Source: Candidatus Poribacteria bacterium (GTDB lineage: Bacteria; Poribacteria; WGA-4E; WGA-3G). Taken from it: a DNA stretch of 64,000 nt. A model generated the notes under the pieces. That model worked only from the letters and a program-made list of their open reading frames with translations. It was not told the DNA's origin and ran no database searches. How positions within the stretch are numbered: the first letter of the stretch is position 1; every line of letters begins with the position of its first letter. The position numbers and the translations under genes were made by a program. Shown in pieces: positions 16,406-23,444 of this stretch. Location of the stretch: positions 4,256,001 to 4,320,000 of the forward strand of contig OZ243938.1 in assembly GCA_965214095.1 (NCBI GenBank). Reading direction: 5' to 3'.

Positions 16406-16666
16406 ATGGCACAACCAAATAAAATTAGAGCTACCTACAAGAATGGTGTAATTGAACCGTTAGACGAACTCAATCTTCCTGACGGGCAAGAACTTGAGCT
16501 TGAAATCAAAGTACTCCCATCTGCCACCACTGTACTGTCTAAAGAAGAGAAAAAAGACTTGATTCAGAAAATGCGAGGGACTATGAAAGGTACTTGGGGA
16601 AGTAGTGTTGAAGATATCAATGCTTATCTCAAGTCAGAAAGGGATGCATGGAACAGAAGGCACTAA
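16406..16666 (+). CDS. AF2212/DUF104-like antitoxin
   Basis: IRATYKNGVIEPL..LNLPDG signature; upstream of a PIN gene. Confidence 0.75.
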   Translation: MAQPNKIRATYKNGVIEPLDELNLPDGQELELEIKVLPSATTVLSKEEKKDLIQKMRGTMKGTWGSSVEDINAYLKSERDAWNRRH

Positions 16667-17115
16667 ATTTTCGTTCAGTTCTCTTTCAAGATGCGACCGT
16701 GTTACTGGATACTTCTGTTTTAATATATTACTTTGAAGAGATTGAACCGTACTATCATTTAACAGAGGAAATCTTCAACGAAGCTAATGATGACAATATT
16801 AAGGGTTTTCTATCGGCTATATCAGTAACAGAATTTGTAACTAAACCATTTGCAGATGGAAAGGTAGCAGATGTTGAACGTTTTAAACATTTGCTATCTT
16901 CAATTTCAATACAAGTACTTGCTGTCACCTATGAAATTGCAGAATTGGCAGGTAAACTTCGCGCAAAATATCCAAGCACTCACACCCCAGACGCTCTAAT
17001 TATTGCCACAGCGTTAGAGAATAGATGTGATTTATTTTTTACTAACGACAAGAACTTGAAGAAATTTGAAGTTTCTGGGTTTGATGTAATTGTGCTTGCA
17101 GATTATGTTGAATGA
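16648..17115 (+). CDS. PIN-domain (VapC-like) toxin
   Basis: LLDTSVLIY, TPDALIIATA, FTNDKNL. Confidence 0.85.
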   Translation: MEQKALNFRSVLFQDATVLLDTSVLIYYFEEIEPYYHLTEEIFNEANDDNIKGFLSAISVTEFVTKPFADGKVADVERFKHLLSSISIQVLAVTYEIAELAGKLRAKYPSTHTPDALIIATALENRCDLFFTNDKNLKKFEVSGFDVIVLADYVE

Positions 17116-17284: not shown

Positions 17285-17373
17285 TTTATGAGGAAGATAA
17301 GTAATAATCTACAAAACTGCATCCGAAAATGTGTATAAGCGATTACGAATAATCTATGCAGTGGAGAATATAA

Positions 17374-19347
17374 ATGAGGACTTTATCAGACAAAATCACA
17401 CTTAATCTTGACGATGGTGCAGAAGTGTCCGTCAAAGGCTTCATCGCGCCGATTGAATACACACAATACAACTACTATGTCAAATGGGATGCATTGGCAA
17501 ATCTGCGCGCAACTGAACCAGAGAAACAGTATCTCACTTCAATTTTCACTGATTTTCTACCCAGTTGTAACATTGCTGTCGGTGATTTTTGGGAAGTTAA
17601 GCAAGATGGTGTATTGGAAATACTAAAGCAACTTCATCCAAAACCGAATGTAGATATGCACCTGAATGCGGGAGATTCTTGTGGCCTGTGGGCATGTCTC
17701 CGCGCATACAATGATGAATATGCCGACATCATGTTTCGTCTACATGCTGAATTCCAACTAAAAAACGGTTGGTTCACACCATCTCAATTTAAGGGTAATC
17801 TAATAATTGATCGATGCAATGGTAGAATTGCCAGTTTTAAGATGTATGTTCCAAAGGGTGTACTAAATTTTGATGTCAACTGGCATACGACATTGGAAGG
17901 CGATAGCGAACCTTCATGGTGGACTGATATCGGATACTGTCCACAAATGGAACTCCGCGCAGGAAATGATGCAGGTCCAAATAGTATAGAATTCACGGAA
18001 TTCATTTCACAGGAAGATGCAGAGCACAGACTGATACGTTGTTTTTACAAATCACAGCAAATCAATTGGGTTTCCTTGGAGGAAGCACTGAAATTGGCAC
18101 CAACCCTACAGAAACCGATCCATGCTATTTCAATAGATGGACCACTGGCAGACGAATCCTGCTGAGGGAGTGGTAAAAGTTTGAGGGCAGGTGTCCTCTC
18201 TAATGAGCAAATTATTACATTCTTGAATGAAAACTTCATCAATACATGGGTGCCTAATGCAGAATTGGGACGAATCCGAAGTTTGCGAGAACCGATAGAA
18301 AAAAGACGATTACAAGAAGGCAAAACATTCAACAAAAACCATGAGTTAGCACAAACTATCATTAAGGGATGGAAAACCGGTACGAAAAAAGGTTCGCCGA
18401 TGGATTGTTTCGTCATATCACCAGAGTTTGAACTGATGGGTAGACAACTCGTGAATGACTTGGACGATGACCGTAGAAATAGAGCATTACCATCAGAAGA
18501 GGCTTATTATCTTACATTTCTCAATGATGCATTGGAAGGAAAACAACCAGGTTTGGGGAATGTTGTTCTGACCTATGACAATCCTTCTCACGAGTTATCG
18601 GATGTTATTAGAACTTCCTCAGAAAACAATCAGAATCTAACTATTGTCATGATTGATGCCAGATCTTGTATAAACGGAGGTATATTGATCATTGACATTC
18701 TAATGGGCAGAGATGATGCAGAAGGTGCATTTTATTTATGTGACGGTGATTATATACTTCCCACGGATAGAGAAGTATCGGAGAATGATAGTCTTGCATG
18801 GACTTGGGGTGAATCCGATGAGACACTTCAGATAAAGCATCAATTCAACAGTGGACAATTTTTCAAGTTAATTGCTACACGTTATTGGGATGAGGATATT
18901 CCTTATATCAATGCATTTCACGCTAAAATTTCTGTAGAAGAAAATGCTCCAACTGGTATGAAGATTGTTCTTGATAGAGAACAACCGAAACAGAAGGCAT
19001 TAGAGACTTTTCGTGCACCTGGACATGGATATCAGGATTATACTGTTGTCAATATTGATACATTAGCGTTTGGTAATGGTGGAATACTAACAATTGAAAT
19101 TCAAGTTGGTAATGCAAAAGCATGCGGGTCGTTTGATCTGTTTGATGATGACACAAAACTGCCGACAAAAGGTACACCAAAGGAAGCACTCAGTTCTGCA
19201 TGGGGAATTGAACCCGGGAACAATGGTACAATCACACACGGTTTTGAGAAAGGTAAGGTCTTCAAGCTTGGTGCTACAGGCGACTGGTTTAGTAAGAAGG
19301 GAGATATAAACGCTTTTCACGCGATTATTTCTGTAAAGGAAAAATAA
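17374..19347 (+). CDS. Selenoprotein N-like protein 1 (Sec at TGA 18163-18165; 657 aa; two C-terminal repeat domains)
   Basis: ORFs 17374-18165 and 18181-19347 are in the same frame, joined by TGA GGG AGT GGT AAA AGT, giving DGPLADESC-U-GSGKSLRAGVLS; SelN-like motifs FRLHAEFQL, WFTPSQF, DIGYCPQMEL. Confidence 0.88.
18183..18198 (+). promoter_or_regulatory. Putative bacterial-type SECIS apical hairpin, copy 1
   Basis: GAGGGC-AGGT-GTCCTC, beginning 18 nt after the UGA. Confidence 0.7.
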
Positions 19348-20883
19348 ATGAATACAACAAGCAAAATATCGATTAATATAGAAAACGAAGAAAAAGTAAC
19401 TGTCAAAGGCTACATCGCACCTATTGAAGACATGAAACCTAACTTTCACGAAGAATGGGATGCGTTGGCGAATATGCGTGTAAACGAACCAGAAAAGGAA
19501 TATAACACAACGGATTTCCAAGCCTTTCTTCCCGGTGAACCTGTTGCTATCGGTGATTGTTGGCAGATTGAAGAAAATGGGGTATTGGAGCTTCTCAAAC
19601 AATTGAATCCCAATCCGAATCTGGATATGCATATTAATATTGGGGATTCCGCTGGATTGTGGGCATGTCTACGTGCATATAACGAGCAACATGCTCATAT
19701 TGTGTTTCGTATTCATGCAGAATTTCAATTAGAAGATGGATGGTTCACGCCTTCTCATTTTGCGGGAGATCTTATTATTGACCGGAACAAACAGGATGTC
19801 GTTTCTTTTCGTCAGTGCGTTCCTGAGGGAAAATGGTTTGATGTAAATTGGAAAAAAGATAAAGACGATCCAAACCATTATTATAGTACAGCTTCCGGTG
19901 TATGTCCAAAAATTGAACTATATGGCGGTTTGCGAGATTTACAGAAAGATACAAAATTTGCTTTATCTATTACACAAAAAGAAGCAGAAGAGAAACTAAA
20001 AAAACAATTCTACAAATCAGAGCAAATAAACTGGGTTCCCTTTGAGGACGCAGTAGAATTAGCACAGGCACATCAGAAACCGATCCATGCATTATCTATT
20101 GATGGACCGCTTGATGATGAAGCGTGCTGAGGCAGCGGAAAAAACTTGAGGGCAGTTGTCCTCTCCGATGACCGAATTATCAATTATCTAAATGAAAATT
20201 ATATCAACACATGGATACGTACTATTGAGTTGAGAAACATGCGTGATACATTGGGATATCAACAAATACACCCCTTGGCGTGGGCTATCATCAGTCATAA
20301 ATGGCGTAGAGGTCCTGTAGACTCTTGGATCATATCCCCAGAACTTGAAGCAATAGGACATGTCCCGATCAATGAATACCTTGGAGAAAACAGACGTGAA
20401 GACGGCACACTTGAAAGTGATAATTACTTGTTGTTTCTCCAAGATACCTTATCAGGAAAACTGCCTGGATTAGGGAATATTGTTTTCACTCCCGATAATC
20501 CATCACATACAGTATTAGACGTATTTCGCACACCAGAATTTGGACATCAGGATTATACCGTTGCTGTTATTGATACGACTGCATTTAAGAGCAAAGGCAC
20601 ACTGACTATTGATATAGAATTGGGCAACGATAAAGCGTATGGTTCATTCTTTTTGCTTGATGCAGACCATAAACTGTCCTTTGATGCTGATAATAAACGA
20701 CCAGATGGTAGCATGTTTGATGGTGCACACGACGTTGGTTGGTATGATCCGTGTGAAATAGGACAGATGACACATCAATTTGAACAAGGACAAATATATA
20801 AACTGGTTGGTATGGGATGGGCATCTAACGAAAAGGGAAGTATTAACGCATATCGAGCAAAAATCACTGTTGAGGTAGAATAA
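19348..20883 (+). CDS. Selenoprotein N-like protein 2 (Sec at TGA 20128-20130; 511 aa; one C-terminal repeat domain)
   Basis: In-frame join DGPLDDEAC-U-GSGKNLRAVVLS; ATG immediately follows the TAA of copy 1. Confidence 0.88.
20148..20163 (+). promoter_or_regulatory. Putative bacterial-type SECIS apical hairpin, copy 2
   Basis: GAGGGC-AGTT-GTCCTC, same spacing from the UGA. Confidence 0.7.
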
Positions 20884-20884
20884 A

Positions 20885-22912
20885 ATGAAAATCAATCTAA
20901 AACTAAATGATAGCGAAAAAATATCAGTCCAAGGATACATAGCACCGATTGAATACACACAATACAACTTCCATGTTGAATGGGACGAACTCGCAAATCT
21001 ACGTGTTGCAGAACCTGAGAAGCAATATCCTTTATCAATCTTTCAATCTTTTCTACCATTGGAACCTGTTTCGGTCGGTGAATGTTGGGAAATTCAAGAG
21101 GAAGGTCCATTGGCTTTACTAAAACAACTCTACCCACGTCCAGTGCTGAAACTGGTTATTGATTCAGGGGATTCTTACGGTCTGTGGGGATGTCTACGCG
21201 CTTACAACGATAGGTATGCTGAAATTATTTTTCGTATTCATGCAGAATTTATCATGAATAATGGTAAGTTTACACCATCACAATTCGCAGGACATTTGCA
21301 AGTTGACCAAATTAAGCAGGAAATTGTGCATTTCAAGATGTATGTGCCTCCTACTACACTGAACTTTGATGCAGGTTGGACACGGGAAAATGAGGATACT
21401 TGTGCTGAAATCGGATATTGTCCAAGAATGGAACTATCTGCGGGGGATTCTGTCATTAAAACAGAATTTATTGAGTCAATACCCCAAGGCGAAGCGGAAC
21501 GTGCACTGATATTACGTTTCTACAAATCACAACAGATAAACTGGGTATCTTTGGAAGAAGCGATGGTACTTGCAACGACACAACAGAAACCAATTCACGC
21601 TATTTCCACCGACGGTCCACTTGCGGATGAGTCCTGCTGAGGGACTGGTAAAATCTTGAGGACAGGTGTCCTCTCTAATGAGAAAATAATAACGTTCTTG
21701 AATGAAAACTTTATCAATACTTGGGTTGCTAATGCAGAATTAGGACGCACCGGTAGTTTACAGGAACCGATTGCCAAAAGACGTGAACGTGAATGCATCA
21801 CCTTTGATGCCTCACACATCTTAGCAAAAGTAATTATGAAAGGATGGGTAAAAGGCTCACCTGTAGACTGTTTTGTTATATCGCATGATTATGAATTGAT
21901 GGGTGGTTTAGATTACAATGAGTTCCTTGATAACTTAGGGAGAATGCACGATTTTGATGCATACATGTCATTTCTCCAGGATTCAATGAATGGAAACCGT
22001 CCCGGTTTGGGAGATGTTATTCTTACGCCAGAACAATCATCACAAGAGGTATTAGACACAATATCAACTCCAAAGAAAGCACATCAGGACTATACAGTTA
22101 TCGGCATTAATACAACTGCGTTTGAAAACGGAGGCACGCTTATTATTGATTTCCAAGTTGGCAGAGATGATGCAGTCGGCTTATTTTTTCTGCTTGATGG
22201 AAATAGAAAAATCCCATCTGAGAAAGTTCCTGAAGGTATTGACCCAGCAGCATGGCACAGTCAAGAAAGTGATGAATATGAGAAGGCTCTTGATGCACTT
22301 GCTTATTGTTGGGGTGTATTTCCAAACGAAACCAGTCAACTAAAATACGATTTTGATAAAGGTCAACTGTTTAAATTATGTGTTACTGGAGATCAATGGG
22401 GTGGAGCCGGTGCAATAAACGCTTATGTCGCTAAAATAACCGTTGATAACAAAATAGATGTCTCATCGAAAATTGACAAAACTGAAGATGAAGAGGGTAT
22501 TGTTACTCCCATTTCAAGTGAGATAAACGTAGTCCTTGATAAATCACATCCTTCCAAAGAAGTATTAGACATTTTTCGTGCACCAGGAAGTGAGAAACAA
22601 GATTACACCGTTCTCAATATTGATACAACCGCATTTCAAGATGGTGGATTACTTTCTATTGACATACAGGTAGGTGGTGCAAAGGCTTACGGATCATTTG
22701 ATCTCTTTGATGAAGATGCGGAACTGCCAACAGAAGGAATTCCAGATGAGGCATTGGAATCTGCATGGGGAATTGAACCCGATACAAGTGATAATATAAA
22801 ATACCGTTTTGAAAAAGGCAAAATTTTCAAGTTAGGTGCTACCGGAGATTGGTATAGTAACAAAGGTGACATCAATGCCTTTCATGCCATTATTTCAGTG
22901 AAGGGAAAATGA
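20885..22912 (+). CDS. Selenoprotein N-like protein 3 (Sec at TGA 21638-21640; 675 aa; two C-terminal repeat domains)
   Basis: In-frame join DGPLADESC-U-GTGKILRTGVLS; starts 1 nt after the copy 2 stop. Confidence 0.88.
21658..21673 (+). promoter_or_regulatory. Putative bacterial-type SECIS apical hairpin, copy 3
   Basis: GAGGAC-AGGT-GTCCTC; the G-U pair of copies 1 and 2 is A-U here. Confidence 0.7.
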
Positions 22913-22930
22913 ATGTCTTTGATACAGAAT

Positions 22931-22959
22931 TTGACATTTCTGTTATGATATGTTAAAAT
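22931..22959 (+). promoter_or_regulatory. Putative sigma70 promoter of the ferredoxin-gmk-coaBC-rsmA run
   Basis: TTGACA-17 bp-TAAAAT with extended -10 TG. Confidence 0.6.
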
Positions 22960-22985
22960 ACAATATATCAGGAGGTGCCGCAACT

Positions 22986-23444
22986 ATGGCATATTTTATT
23001 ACTGAAGAATGTATCGGATGTATGGCATGTTTAACCAACTGTCCCGTGGATGCAATCACTGGGGACCGCAATATGCTTCACATCATTGACCCAAATATCT
23101 GTATTGACTGTAGTGCTTGTGGGATGGTCTGTCCGGTAGAAGCAATCCGTGACCAATTTGGTGATGTGTGTAAATTTATTCGACGACCAACTCATAGGCC
23201 AATTGCTGTTATCTATGAAGAACTCTGCTCTGGGTGTGATTTCTGCGTCCATATTTGTCCGTGGGAATGTCTGGAACTGAAAGACCCTGAGACAGGTGAG
23301 CATGCTGAAAGTTTCTTCGGGATCTGCGAATTGGTGAAACCAAAAGATTGCGTTGGCTGCAAGTTATGTGAAGAGGTCTGCATAAAAGATGCTATCCGAG
23401 TCGAATCACCTGTGTTATTAGAACTCGCTGAAGCCGCAGACTAA
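22986..23444 (+). CDS. Ferredoxin with four [4Fe-4S]-binding motifs
   Basis: CIGCMACLTNCP, CIDCSACGMVCP, CSGCDFCVHICP, CVGCKLCEEVC; AGGAGG RBS before ATG 22986. Confidence 0.9.
   Translation: MAYFITEECIGCMACLTNCPVDAITGDRNMLHIIDPNICIDCSACGMVCPVEAIRDQFGDVCKFIRRPTHRPIAVIYEELCSGCDFCVHICPWECLELKDPETGEHAESFFGICELVKPKDCVGCKLCEEVCIKDAIRVESPVLLELAEAAD

What the first reader, a model, noticed from the sequence alone, without database searches (positions are those of the whole stretch)
17374..22912. Operon of three tandem selenoprotein N-like genes hidden behind in-frame UGA codons
Seen in sequence: three diverged paralogs are each split at the same point by TGA, in the context DGPLxDE(S/A)C-TGA-G(S/T)GKxLR. 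Exactly five sense codons separate the TGA from the TTG the ORF caller picked, and the downstream half is in frame each time. The genes abut with 0 and 1 nt gaps. Established (recalled from memory): animal SELENON has the motif [20 protein letters not shown]...LLNESFISTW, preceded by FRIHAEFQL, FSPAQFTG and DIGYIPQMEL. All of these have ordered counterparts here (FRLHAEFQL, FTPSQFKG, DIGYCPQMEL, FLNENFINTW). Inference: the TGA encodes selenocysteine, giving 657-, 511- and 675-aa CU-motif redox proteins that lack the eukaryotic N-terminal TM/EF-hand region. SelN is regarded as an essentially animal selenoprotein, so an expanded family in a probable sponge-associated bacterium raises host-symbiont transfer or a bacterial origin. 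I recall that a Poribacteria SelN-like sequence may have been noticed before, so novelty needs a literature check. Standard annotation would call six hypothetical proteins.
Basis: partly seen in the sequence, partly recalled or inferred. Interest (0 to 1): 0.93.

Follow-up and report, generated by a model that had tools for sequence, protein, structure and literature searches.

The report
Three tandem bacterial selenoprotein-N genes
Three neighbouring genes of a sponge-associated bacterium each read one UGA stop codon as selenocysteine and encode relatives of selenoprotein N, a human muscle-disease protein, showing that this family is widespread in bacteria and offering simpler proteins in which to study it.

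Summary
Three abutting + strand genes (17374-19347, 19348-20883, 20885-22912) each carry one in-frame TGA in the motif SC-U-G.

Evidence that the TGA is read as selenocysteine:
- The genome holds selA, selB, tRNA-Sec and a Sec-containing selD.
- TGA stands at this codon in all 199 distinct Poribacteria copies read.
- Synonymous sites are frozen over a 6-bp hairpin that starts 20 nt after the UGA.
- dN/dS is 0.06-0.18 on both sides of the TGA.
- Cys-containing homologs exist.
- Vertebrate selenoprotein N aligns across the site (E 1.6e-30).

It is found in 95 of 121 Poribacteria genomes sampled, with up to 16 matches per genome. It also forms many clusters of other, unnamed bacteria, which have signal peptides or ECF-sigma fusions. 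In 28 of 28 metagenome loci these bacteria keep the same TGA, and most keep the same hairpin.

Poribacterial copies nest among bacterial sequences, not among animal ones. This argues against recent host-to-symbiont transfer, but the point where the animal clade attaches is unresolved.

A 2026 inventory of 119 prokaryotic selenoprotein families lists no such family.

The biochemical function is inferred only.

The parts
17374..19347 (+). Gene 1: SelN-like selenoprotein, 657 aa, Sec at residue 264. No N-terminal hydrophobic signal. It has a SelN-homology region followed by two copies of a C-terminal domain.
18163..18165 (+). UGA codon of gene 1, read as selenocysteine (motif SC-U-G)
18183..18198 (+). 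SECIS-like hairpin of gene 1: 6-bp stem, loop AGGU, starting 20 nt after the U of UGA
18058..18249 (+). Segment of gene 1 (residues 229-292) that aligns with Thioredoxin_7-type domains. Sec falls on the first Cys of their CxxC.
   Evidence: hhalign probability 75%, E 2.5e-5, 57 columns
18586..18948 (+). First copy of the ~125-aa C-terminal domain of gene 1. It is absent from animal SelN and has no Pfam match.
18976..19344 (+). Second copy of the C-terminal domain of gene 1 (41% identical to the first, E 8e-23)
19348..20883 (+). Gene 2: SelN-like selenoprotein, 511 aa, Sec at residue 261, with one C-terminal domain
20128..20130 (+). UGA-Sec codon of gene 2
20148..20163 (+). SECIS-like hairpin of gene 2 (loop AGUU)
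20885..22912 (+). Gene 3: SelN-like selenoprotein, 675 aa, Sec at residue 252, with two C-terminal domains. Its true stop is a TGA at 22910-22912.
21638..21640 (+). UGA-Sec codon of gene 3
21658..21673 (+). SECIS-like hairpin of gene 3. The G.U pair of gene 1 is an A-U pair here.

Best explanation
The three genes are bacterial members of the selenoprotein N (SELENON) family and are translated as full-length selenoproteins. Shown: each has one UGA at the position of the Sec of animal SelN, and a GC-rich 6-bp hairpin (loop AGGU or AGUU) begins 20 nt downstream, inside the codons for L-R-A/T-G/V-V-L-S. Inferred: this hairpin is the bacterial SECIS that recruits SelB with Sec-tRNA(Sec), both of which the genome encodes. 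Inferred from sequence: the products are cytoplasmic, because they lack the signal peptide that some paralogs carry. Each product has the SelN-homology region, then a thioredoxin-like segment in which Sec sits where the nucleophilic Cys of a CxxC would be with a Cys directly before it, then one or two copies of a ~125-aa domain unknown to Pfam. Inferred mechanism: the adjacent Cys-Sec pair cycles between selenol/thiol and selenenylsulfide and so reduces or senses an oxidised client. This is the role proposed for the SCUG site of animal SelN (passages of PMC8148124 and PMC12839072). Tight spacing (0 and 1 nt) suggests that the three genes are co-transcribed. They are one small array of a family amplified in Poribacteria and present in many other bacteria.
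For: Sec machinery:
- selA 616 bits, selB 355 bits, tRNA-Sec 78 bits right after selB, and selD 361 bits.
- ARAGORN calls tRNA-SeC with anticodon tca.
- selD itself has an in-frame UGA in its N-terminal loop.

Homology to selenoprotein N:
- Vertebrate 'Selenoprotein N' scores E 1.6e-30 at 33% identity over 71% of residues 60-400, and the alignment spans the U.

Conservation of the TGA:
- 194 of 194 motif instances in the window plus 75 Poribacteria loci have TGA.
- 199 of 199 distinct TGA-bearing segments keep TGC before it (198 of 199) and GGG after it (162 of 184 Gly).
- 140 of the 150 listed genome matches hold exactly one TGA.
- 28 of 28 loci of a distant bacterial branch have TGA at the same place.

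RNA-level constraint on the hairpin codons, against family-wide codon use:
- Arg is AGG/AGA in 199 of 199 copies (family-wide AGR 32%).
- Ala is GCA in 180 of 181.
- Gly is GGT in 136 of 137.
- Leu is CTC in 192 of 199 (family-wide 20%).
- Flanking codons show mixed synonymous use.
- The hairpin is more stable than synonymously recoded controls (-9.2 vs -6.2 kcal/mol, 183 sequences).
- 95.4% of pair cells are paired, against 44-81% when the pairing is slid. 17 cells show a change on both sides against 4.8 in shuffles (0 of 500 shuffles reach this) (148 of 174 distinct sequences were given).

Both halves are coding:
- dN/dS is 0.06-0.18 upstream and 0.11-0.17 downstream of the U, in four ortholog comparisons.
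- The five codons between the TGA and the TTG vary synonymously.

Other support:
- Cys homologs with a CC motif: P0194, P0196, P0220, P0222, P0247, P0318.
- Thioredoxin-like relation with Sec on the first CxxC Cys: hhalign probability 75%, E 2.5e-5.
Against: - There is no protein-level or selenium-labelling evidence.
- No RNA run holds the locus.
- Folding each window hairpin alone is not remarkable against dinucleotide shuffles (z -1.02, -1.58, 0.01).
- The hairpin overlaps a peptide (LRxxVLS) that is also conserved in animal SelN, so part of its conservation is protein-driven.
- Only 2 pairs show changes on both sides, a count that 120 of 500 shuffles reach.
- Orthologs that replaced Sec by Gly still keep a hairpin.
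- No Rfam SECIS family matches.
- The thioredoxin-like assignment rests on one profile comparison at 75% probability. Pfam gives nothing and no structure could be predicted.
- Sec is replaced by Gly or Trp, not Cys, in some Poribacteria paralogs, which is odd for a purely catalytic residue.
Confidence: 0.88

Rival explanations
1. The TGAs are real stops. On this reading the locus holds six separate genes, or three genes decayed into halves (pseudogenes), and the likeness to SelN is only historical.
For: Table-11 ORF calling gives six ORFs, each second half with a possible TTG start. Public collections hold the halves as separate proteins. TGA is also a normal stop in this family, in 68 of 166 genes and in gene 3 itself.
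Against: The same TGA is kept in 199 of 199 distinct Poribacteria copies and in 28 of 28 loci of a distant branch, and never as TAA or TAG. Both halves are under purifying selection. The five codons before the supposed TTG start are conserved as GSGK with synonymous changes. Animal SelN has Sec at this position, and Cys forms read straight through it. The Sec machinery is complete.
Confidence: 0.02
2. UGA is read through as a standard amino acid (Trp, Gly or Cys), either by near-cognate decoding or a changed genetic code, rather than as selenocysteine.
For: Some orthologs have Gly (GGA/GGC) or Trp at this position, each one base change from TGA.
Against: TGA ends many genes of the same family and genome. 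The genome has a dedicated tRNA-Sec, selA, selB and a Sec-type selD. A SECIS-like hairpin with frozen synonymous sites follows every such UGA. The homologous residue in animals is Sec.
Confidence: 0.03
3. On origin only: the Poribacteria genes were acquired recently from the sponge host and then amplified, as a eukaryote-like protein of a symbiont.
For: Poribacteria are sponge symbionts. Identity to animal SelN is 31-35%. An AU test does not reject Poribacteria plus animal-type rows as one side of a branch (p 0.433).
Against: The animal-type rows form their own clade (support 100 in both trees). The Poribacteria rows nest, with support 95-99, among unnamed bacterial-type sequences. Those sequences carry bacterial signal peptides or lipoboxes or ECF-sigma fusions, an in-frame bacterial hairpin, and 44-76% GC. 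The Poribacteria genes lack the TM/EF-hand region. No sequence known to come from a sponge was in the set, so a sponge-specific link was not tested directly.
Confidence: 0.08

Closest known systems
Animal selenoprotein N (SELENON/SEPN1)
   Same: Homologous over about 330 residues on both sides of the Sec (E 1.6e-30, 33% identity). Both have the S-C-U-G site at the same alignment column, followed by G-[KR]-x-LR...LN-x-x-F-I. Both are almost always Sec forms rather than Cys forms (passages of PMC7539508).
   Different: The bacterial genes have no transmembrane segment or EF-hand. They lack the two animal inserts seen in the alignment. They carry one or two extra C-terminal domains. Sec insertion is signalled by an in-frame hairpin right after the UGA, not by a 3'-UTR SECIS (the eukaryotic rule is as stated in the PMC3316567 passage). 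The window's copies are cytoplasmic by sequence, not ER-luminal.
Bacterial selenoproteins with a thioredoxin-like fold (the Trx-, Prx- and DsbA-like families listed in Table 1 of PMC13188914)
   Same: A single UGA-Sec sits in a redox motif next to Cys. A SECIS hairpin lies immediately downstream. Synthesis depends on selA/selB/selC/selD. The segment around Sec is thioredoxin-like.
   Different: The motif is CU (adjacent residues), not UxxC or CxxU. A large N-terminal SelN-homology region has no Pfam or NCBIfam model. The family is not among the 119 families of that table.
Thioredoxin_7 / DsbD-C-type domains (PF13899)
   Same: Profile-profile match of SelN-like residues 229-292, with Sec on the first Cys of the CxxC and a similar following helix.
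   Different: The match is only 23% identical over 57 columns at 75% probability. The second Cys of the CxxC is Gly here, and the partner Cys lies directly before the Sec.
C-terminal GCUG of thioredoxin reductase
   Same: An adjacent Cys-Sec pair followed by Gly. The PMC12839072 passage notes this likeness for animal SelN.
   Different: No sequence homology was tested or expected. In TrxR the motif is at the flexible C-terminus, whereas here it is internal to a thioredoxin-like segment. The selenenylsulfide chemistry is recalled knowledge and was not tested.

Membership tests
Selenoprotein N (SELENON) family | Sequence homology to SelN across the region on both sides of the Sec | tested here: met
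   UniRef 'Selenoprotein N' of three vertebrates scores E 1.6e-30 to 7.9e-27 at 33-35% identity, covering 64-71% of residues 60-400. In the profile search, named Nematostella, Sanderia, Rotaria and Mactra SelN are among the hits.
Selenoprotein N (SELENON) family | Sec encoded by UGA inside the S-C-U-G motif at the homologous column | tested here: met
   Animal-type proteins end in ...DDQSC exactly where the window's genes have ...DE[SA]C followed by TGA.
Selenoprotein N (SELENON) family | N-terminal transmembrane anchor and EF-hand (ER calcium sensor architecture) | tested here: not met
   EF-hand Pfam hits appear only in the 3 vertebrate rows of 54. The window's proteins start about 20 residues before the shared region.
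Selenoprotein N (SELENON) family | Eukaryotic-type SECIS in the 3' UTR | tested here: not met
   no Rfam SECIS match in 17300-23000. The genes abut, and an in-frame hairpin is present instead.
Selenoprotein N (SELENON) family | Redox activity toward a client such as SERCA | not testable with these tools
   Known for the animal protein only from passages of PMC8148124.
Bacterial SelB-dependent selenoprotein | In-frame UGA conserved across homologs, never TAA or TAG | tested here: met
   194 of 194; 199 of 199; 28 of 28; 140 of 150 listed matches with exactly one TGA, 9 with none, 1 with three.
Bacterial SelB-dependent selenoprotein | Stem-loop immediately downstream of the UGA, under selection at the RNA level | tested here: met
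   The same place holds a 7-8-bp stem with a GGUC loop in 24 of 27 foldable loci of a distant branch. Single-sequence z-scores alone are weak.
Bacterial SelB-dependent selenoprotein | selA, selB, selC and selD in the genome | tested here: met
   in a genome 94.5% complete. selA is over its cut-off in 118 of 121 genomes of the phylum sample.
Bacterial SelB-dependent selenoprotein | Homologs with Cys in place of Sec | tested here: met
   six proteins with CC at the site. Their DNA was not seen. That C is a real Cys codon is inferred from their being ordinary gene-caller products.
Bacterial SelB-dependent selenoprotein | Selenium actually incorporated | not testable with these tools
   No proteomic or labelling data are available, and no RNA run was listed.
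Thioredoxin-like fold | Fold with the redox residue at the N-terminus of helix 1 | tested here: inconclusive
   hhalign probability 75%, E 2.5e-5. Pfam gives no hit. PDB sequence searches were empty.

The most novel reading that the evidence does not exclude
Selenoprotein N is at root a large bacterial selenoprotein family, and eukaryotic SELENON descends from it by an old bacterium-to-eukaryote transfer. In bacteria the CU domain serves as a redox sensor or reductase module. It is exported in many lineages and wired to ECF sigma factors in some. Sponge-associated Poribacteria have amplified it to ten or more Sec-bearing copies per genome, possibly the largest single-family selenoprotein expansion in a bacterium, as an adaptation to life inside the host.
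Probability: 0.3. Interest if true: 0.9.

Novelty: new variant of a known kind. Interest (0 to 1): 0.8.

Why it matters
SELENON mutations cause a human congenital myopathy. The reviews I read in passages (PMC8148124, PMC12839072) describe only a thioredoxin-like CU motif. My PDB sequence searches found no solved relative.

Soluble bacterial homologs without the membrane anchor and EF-hand, including natural Cys forms, would be tractable material for structure and enzymology.

For microbiology, this adds a widespread and highly amplified family to the prokaryotic selenoproteome. That family is absent from the 2026 inventory of 119 families, and gene callers split it into 'hypothetical' halves.

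It also bears on why sponge symbionts are enriched in selenocysteine machinery (passage of PMC5649159). And it reopens the question of where a eukaryotic selenoprotein came from.

Tried and rejected
**Family and structure searches with no usable result**
- Pfam and NCBIfam scans of the three proteins gave nothing meaningful.
- Scanning all 54 members of A4 gave only weak BrnA_antitoxin hits (9 members, best E 0.0054), EF-hand hits in the 3 vertebrates, and one Thioredox_DsbH hit at E 0.16.
- PDB sequence searches were empty, or gave one chance hit at E 0.59.
- Rfam returned six sub-threshold chance matches and no SECIS.

**Expression and read support**
- Expression: no RNA holder was listed among 21 runs.
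- Laying the contigs of 4 runs showed the stretch whole and identical in X1 and in two pieces in X2. These may be the source sample, so this is not independent support. Nothing was listed at the three TGA places among the 40 rows shown (115 rows were not shown).

**Genomic context**
- In the window the neighbours are leuD, an AF2212-like/PIN pair, a 4Fe-4S protein, gmk and coaBC. Of these, only leuD recurs next to arrays in other loci (12 of 105 loci). No functional link was drawn.
- The promoter and terminator scan was no better than shuffles.
- Neighbours of five metagenome loci were mixed.

**Phylogeny**
- I hoped to reject a Poribacteria-animal sister grouping, but the AU test did not reject it.
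- Rows were dropped before the trees. Only 129 sequences covering profile positions 75-275 or more were kept. The IQ-TREE run used a random 62 of those 129.
- The taxonomy of the non-Poribacteria branch could not be named, because the records are unnamed.

**Literature**
Nine searches on bacterial or Poribacteria SelN found no paper describing it. One search was too broad to be useful.

Passages only were read from:
- PMC11227280
- PMC4807772
- PMC8148124
- PMC12839072
- PMC7474598
- PMC7539508
- PMC13326102
- PMC3316567
- PMC5649159

Section 7, parts 1-2 (Table 1), of PMC13188914 was read in full.

Castets et al. 2012 (J Mol Med) is not held. That memory is unverified.

Supplements are closed. 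Family lists in the supplements of bacterial selenoproteome surveys, and the BSepDB database itself, could hold this family under another name.

Full report
**1. Observation**

Under table 11, the region 17374-22912 holds six + strand ORFs. Reading TGA through joins them pairwise into ORFs of 657, 511 and 675 aa, each with exactly one odd codon, at residues 264, 261 and 252. The TGAs are at 18163-65, 20128-30 and 21638-40. In each case five sense codons lie between the TGA and the TTG that the ORF caller chose. Gene 1's TAA abuts gene 2's ATG. One base separates gene 2's TAA from gene 3's ATG. The three proteins are 49% and 57% identical to gene 1. A search of the whole genome (5.25 Mb, 4 contigs, 94.5% complete) with gene 1 finds only these three copies.

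**2. Is the UGA selenocysteine?**

*Machinery.* The genome encodes the following:
- selA (616 bits)
- selB (355 bits)
- a tRNA-Sec (78 bits) about 150 nt after selB, which ARAGORN calls tRNA-SeC with anticodon tca
- selD (361 bits), which itself has an in-frame UGA in its N-terminal loop

*Conservation of the codon.* A genome-collection scan found 232 related stretches. The best 80 (75 loci) are all from Poribacteria MAGs or single-cell genomes, or from MAGs labelled only 'uncultured bacterium'. A motif scan that allowed any residue at the site found 194 instances in the window plus these loci. All 194 were TGA. They make 166 distinct complete genes, with up to five in one 8-kb locus.

*Codon use around the site.* Over 199 distinct segments, the codons that form the hairpin are nearly frozen at synonymous sites.

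| Codon after UGA | Codon use at this position | Family-wide use |
|---|---|---|
| +7 Arg | AGG 166, AGA 33, CGN 0 | AGR 32% |
| +8 Ala | GCA 180 of 181 | not stated |
| +9 Gly | GGT 136 of 137 | not stated |
| +11 Leu | CTC 192 of 199 | 20% |

Flanking codons, by contrast, use synonyms freely (for example GAG 106 / GAA 93).

*Hairpin.* All common sequence variants fold into a 6-8-bp stem with a 4-6-nt loop starting 20 nt after the UGA. The stem is more stable than synonymously recoded versions, at -9.2 vs -6.2 kcal/mol with mean z -1.25. On 148 of the 174 distinct sequences, 95.4% of pair cells are paired, against 44-81% in slid controls. There are 17 cells with a change on both sides, against 4.8 in shuffles.

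*Weaker points.*
- Single-sequence z-scores are unremarkable.
- Only two pairs covary on both sides.
- The peptide encoded here is also conserved in animals.

*Both halves are coding.* dN/dS is 0.06-0.18 upstream and 0.11-0.17 downstream of the U in four ortholog comparisons.

*Cys homologs.* Six were seen: P0194, P0196, P0220, P0222, P0247 and P0318.

**3. Is it selenoprotein N?**

No Pfam, NCBIfam or PDB sequence match exists. A search of 5.8 billion proteins with residues 60-400 returned 108 hits. They included UniRef 'Selenoprotein N' of three vertebrates (E 1.6e-30 to 7.9e-27, 33-35% identity, 64-71% coverage), with the alignment running across the U column. The bacterial proteins begin about where the shared region begins. 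They lack the transmembrane and EF-hand part. They add one or two copies of a ~125-aa C-terminal domain; the two copies in gene 1 are 41% identical (E 8e-23).

A profile-profile comparison with Thioredoxin_7-type domains taken from Poribacteria genomes aligns residues 229-292. It puts Sec on the first Cys of the CxxC (probability 75%, E 2.5e-5).

**4. Extent of the family**

*Within Poribacteria.* Of 121 genomes sampled from the phylum, 95 have a match at E <= 1e-20. By family this is f1 79/81, f2 8/9, f3 7/19 and f4-f8 0/11. There are up to 16 matches per genome (150 listed plus 613 more). Of the 150 listed, 140 have exactly one TGA, 9 have none and 1 has three. selA is present in 118 of the 121.

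*Exported forms and loss of Sec.* Some paralogs carry signal peptides and still have Sec. In the 17 closest orthologs of one exported form, 8 have TGA and 9 have none. The 9 read Gly (GGA or GGC). Two other full-length proteins read Trp.

*Beyond Poribacteria.* A profile search of 1.84 billion cluster representatives found 1205 clusters at E <= 1e-3 and 246 at E <= 1e-30. Of the best 150, 82 end exactly at ...[ST]C, which means they were cut at the U. About half of these are animal-type. The named ones are from Nematostella, Sanderia, Rotaria and Mactra.

The rest are 270-330-aa proteins with signal-peptide or lipobox-like N-termini and different local motifs. Evidence that they are bacterial:
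- Three relatives are fused to ECF sigma-factor domains.
- One lies on a 9.3-Mb contig and a Cys form lies on a 12.7-Mb contig.
- A metagenome scan with 17 of them returned 28 loci of 44-76% GC, and 28 of 28 have TGA right after ...SC.
- In 26 of the 28 the frame runs on for 56-356 codons. One locus is cut by the contig end and one stops after 8 codons.
- In 24 of the 27 loci long enough to fold, the minimum-free-energy structure holds a 7-8-bp stem with a GGUC loop at the same distance from the UGA.

JGI/IMG's automatic annotation already names one such N-terminal half 'selenoprotein N'.

**5. Relationships**

The trees use the region before the U. FastTree used 129 rows and IQ-TREE with LG+C20 used 62 rows. 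Both split the animal-type rows from all others with support 100. Both place the Poribacteria rows inside the bacterial-type group (support 95-99), next to two Cys forms.

This does not fit a recent acquisition from the sponge host. However, the AU test does not reject a tree that holds Poribacteria and animal-type rows together (lnL difference 6.6, p 0.433). The trees are unrooted, and no row is known to come from a sponge. The direction of any transfer between bacteria and eukaryotes is therefore open.

**6. Function**

Shown:
- the domain layout
- the CU dyad
- the lack of a signal peptide in the window's three proteins
- the links to ECF sigma factors

Two weaker links were also seen: alpha/alpha-toroid (LanC- or prenyltransferase-like) neighbours and one fusion.

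Inferred: the proteins are thiol/selenol oxidoreductases or redox sensors working through a Cys-Sec selenenylsulfide, as proposed for animal SelN. The C-terminal domains may bind a client or ligand. Nothing here identifies the substrate.

**7. Novelty**

Nine literature searches found no paper on bacterial or Poribacteria SelN. The May 2026 inventory of 119 prokaryotic selenoprotein families lists deiodinase-like, SELENOW-like and selenoprotein O-like proteins but no SelN-like family (PMC13188914, Table 1, read in full). The BSepDB paper's text does not mention it (passages). SelN reviews do not mention bacteria (passages).

Caveats:
- One older review is not held.
- Supplements and databases could not be seen.
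- An automatic annotation already uses the name.

I rate this a new variant of a known kind. It is a bacterial branch of the SelN family with its own Sec-insertion signal, its own architecture and striking amplification.

Noticed in passing
P0196, P0267, P0294; L136:3681-4385: ECF sigma-factor domains (Sigma70_r2 + r4) are fused N-terminally to a SelN-like domain, in one Cys form and one Sec form, or to the C-terminal domain alone. In one metagenome locus an ECF sigma gene lies directly downstream of a SelN-like gene.
   Followed up: partly
L139:425-1834, L144:885-2102; P0281: Alpha/alpha-toroid proteins (LanC-like, prenyltransferase-like) lie just upstream of SelN-like genes in two loci. A 1101-aa protein with a weak squalene-hopene-cyclase-N hit carries a SelN-like domain at its C-terminus.
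   Followed up: no
L101-L117; P0017, P0019: Among close orthologs of an exported paralog, Sec (TGA) alternates with Gly (GGA/GGC). Two other proteins have Trp. No Cys replacement was seen within Poribacteria.
   Followed up: partly
G000:C1:1272212-1273138 (L011): The genome's selenophosphate synthetase is itself a selenoprotein, with an in-frame UGA in its N-terminal loop.
   Followed up: yes
G000:C1:5109228-5109479 and C1:4158482-4158742, and relatives: Several Thioredoxin_7-type matches in this and related Poribacteria genomes contain one or two in-frame TGAs. This suggests further thioredoxin-like selenoproteins in the phylum.
   Followed up: no
window 16406-17115: An AF2212-like small protein and a PIN-domain protein overlap as a VapBC-like toxin-antitoxin pair, just upstream of the array.
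   Followed up: no
window 22950-23444: A 164-aa protein with several 4Fe-4S ferredoxin motifs follows the array. It recurs at the matching place in only 1 of 105 loci held.
   Followed up: partly
P0084; alignment A4: NCBI names one C-terminal half 'BrnA antitoxin family protein'. Nine of 54 family members give weak BrnA_antitoxin Pfam hits (best E 0.0054), which is probably the source of that misnaming.
   Followed up: partly
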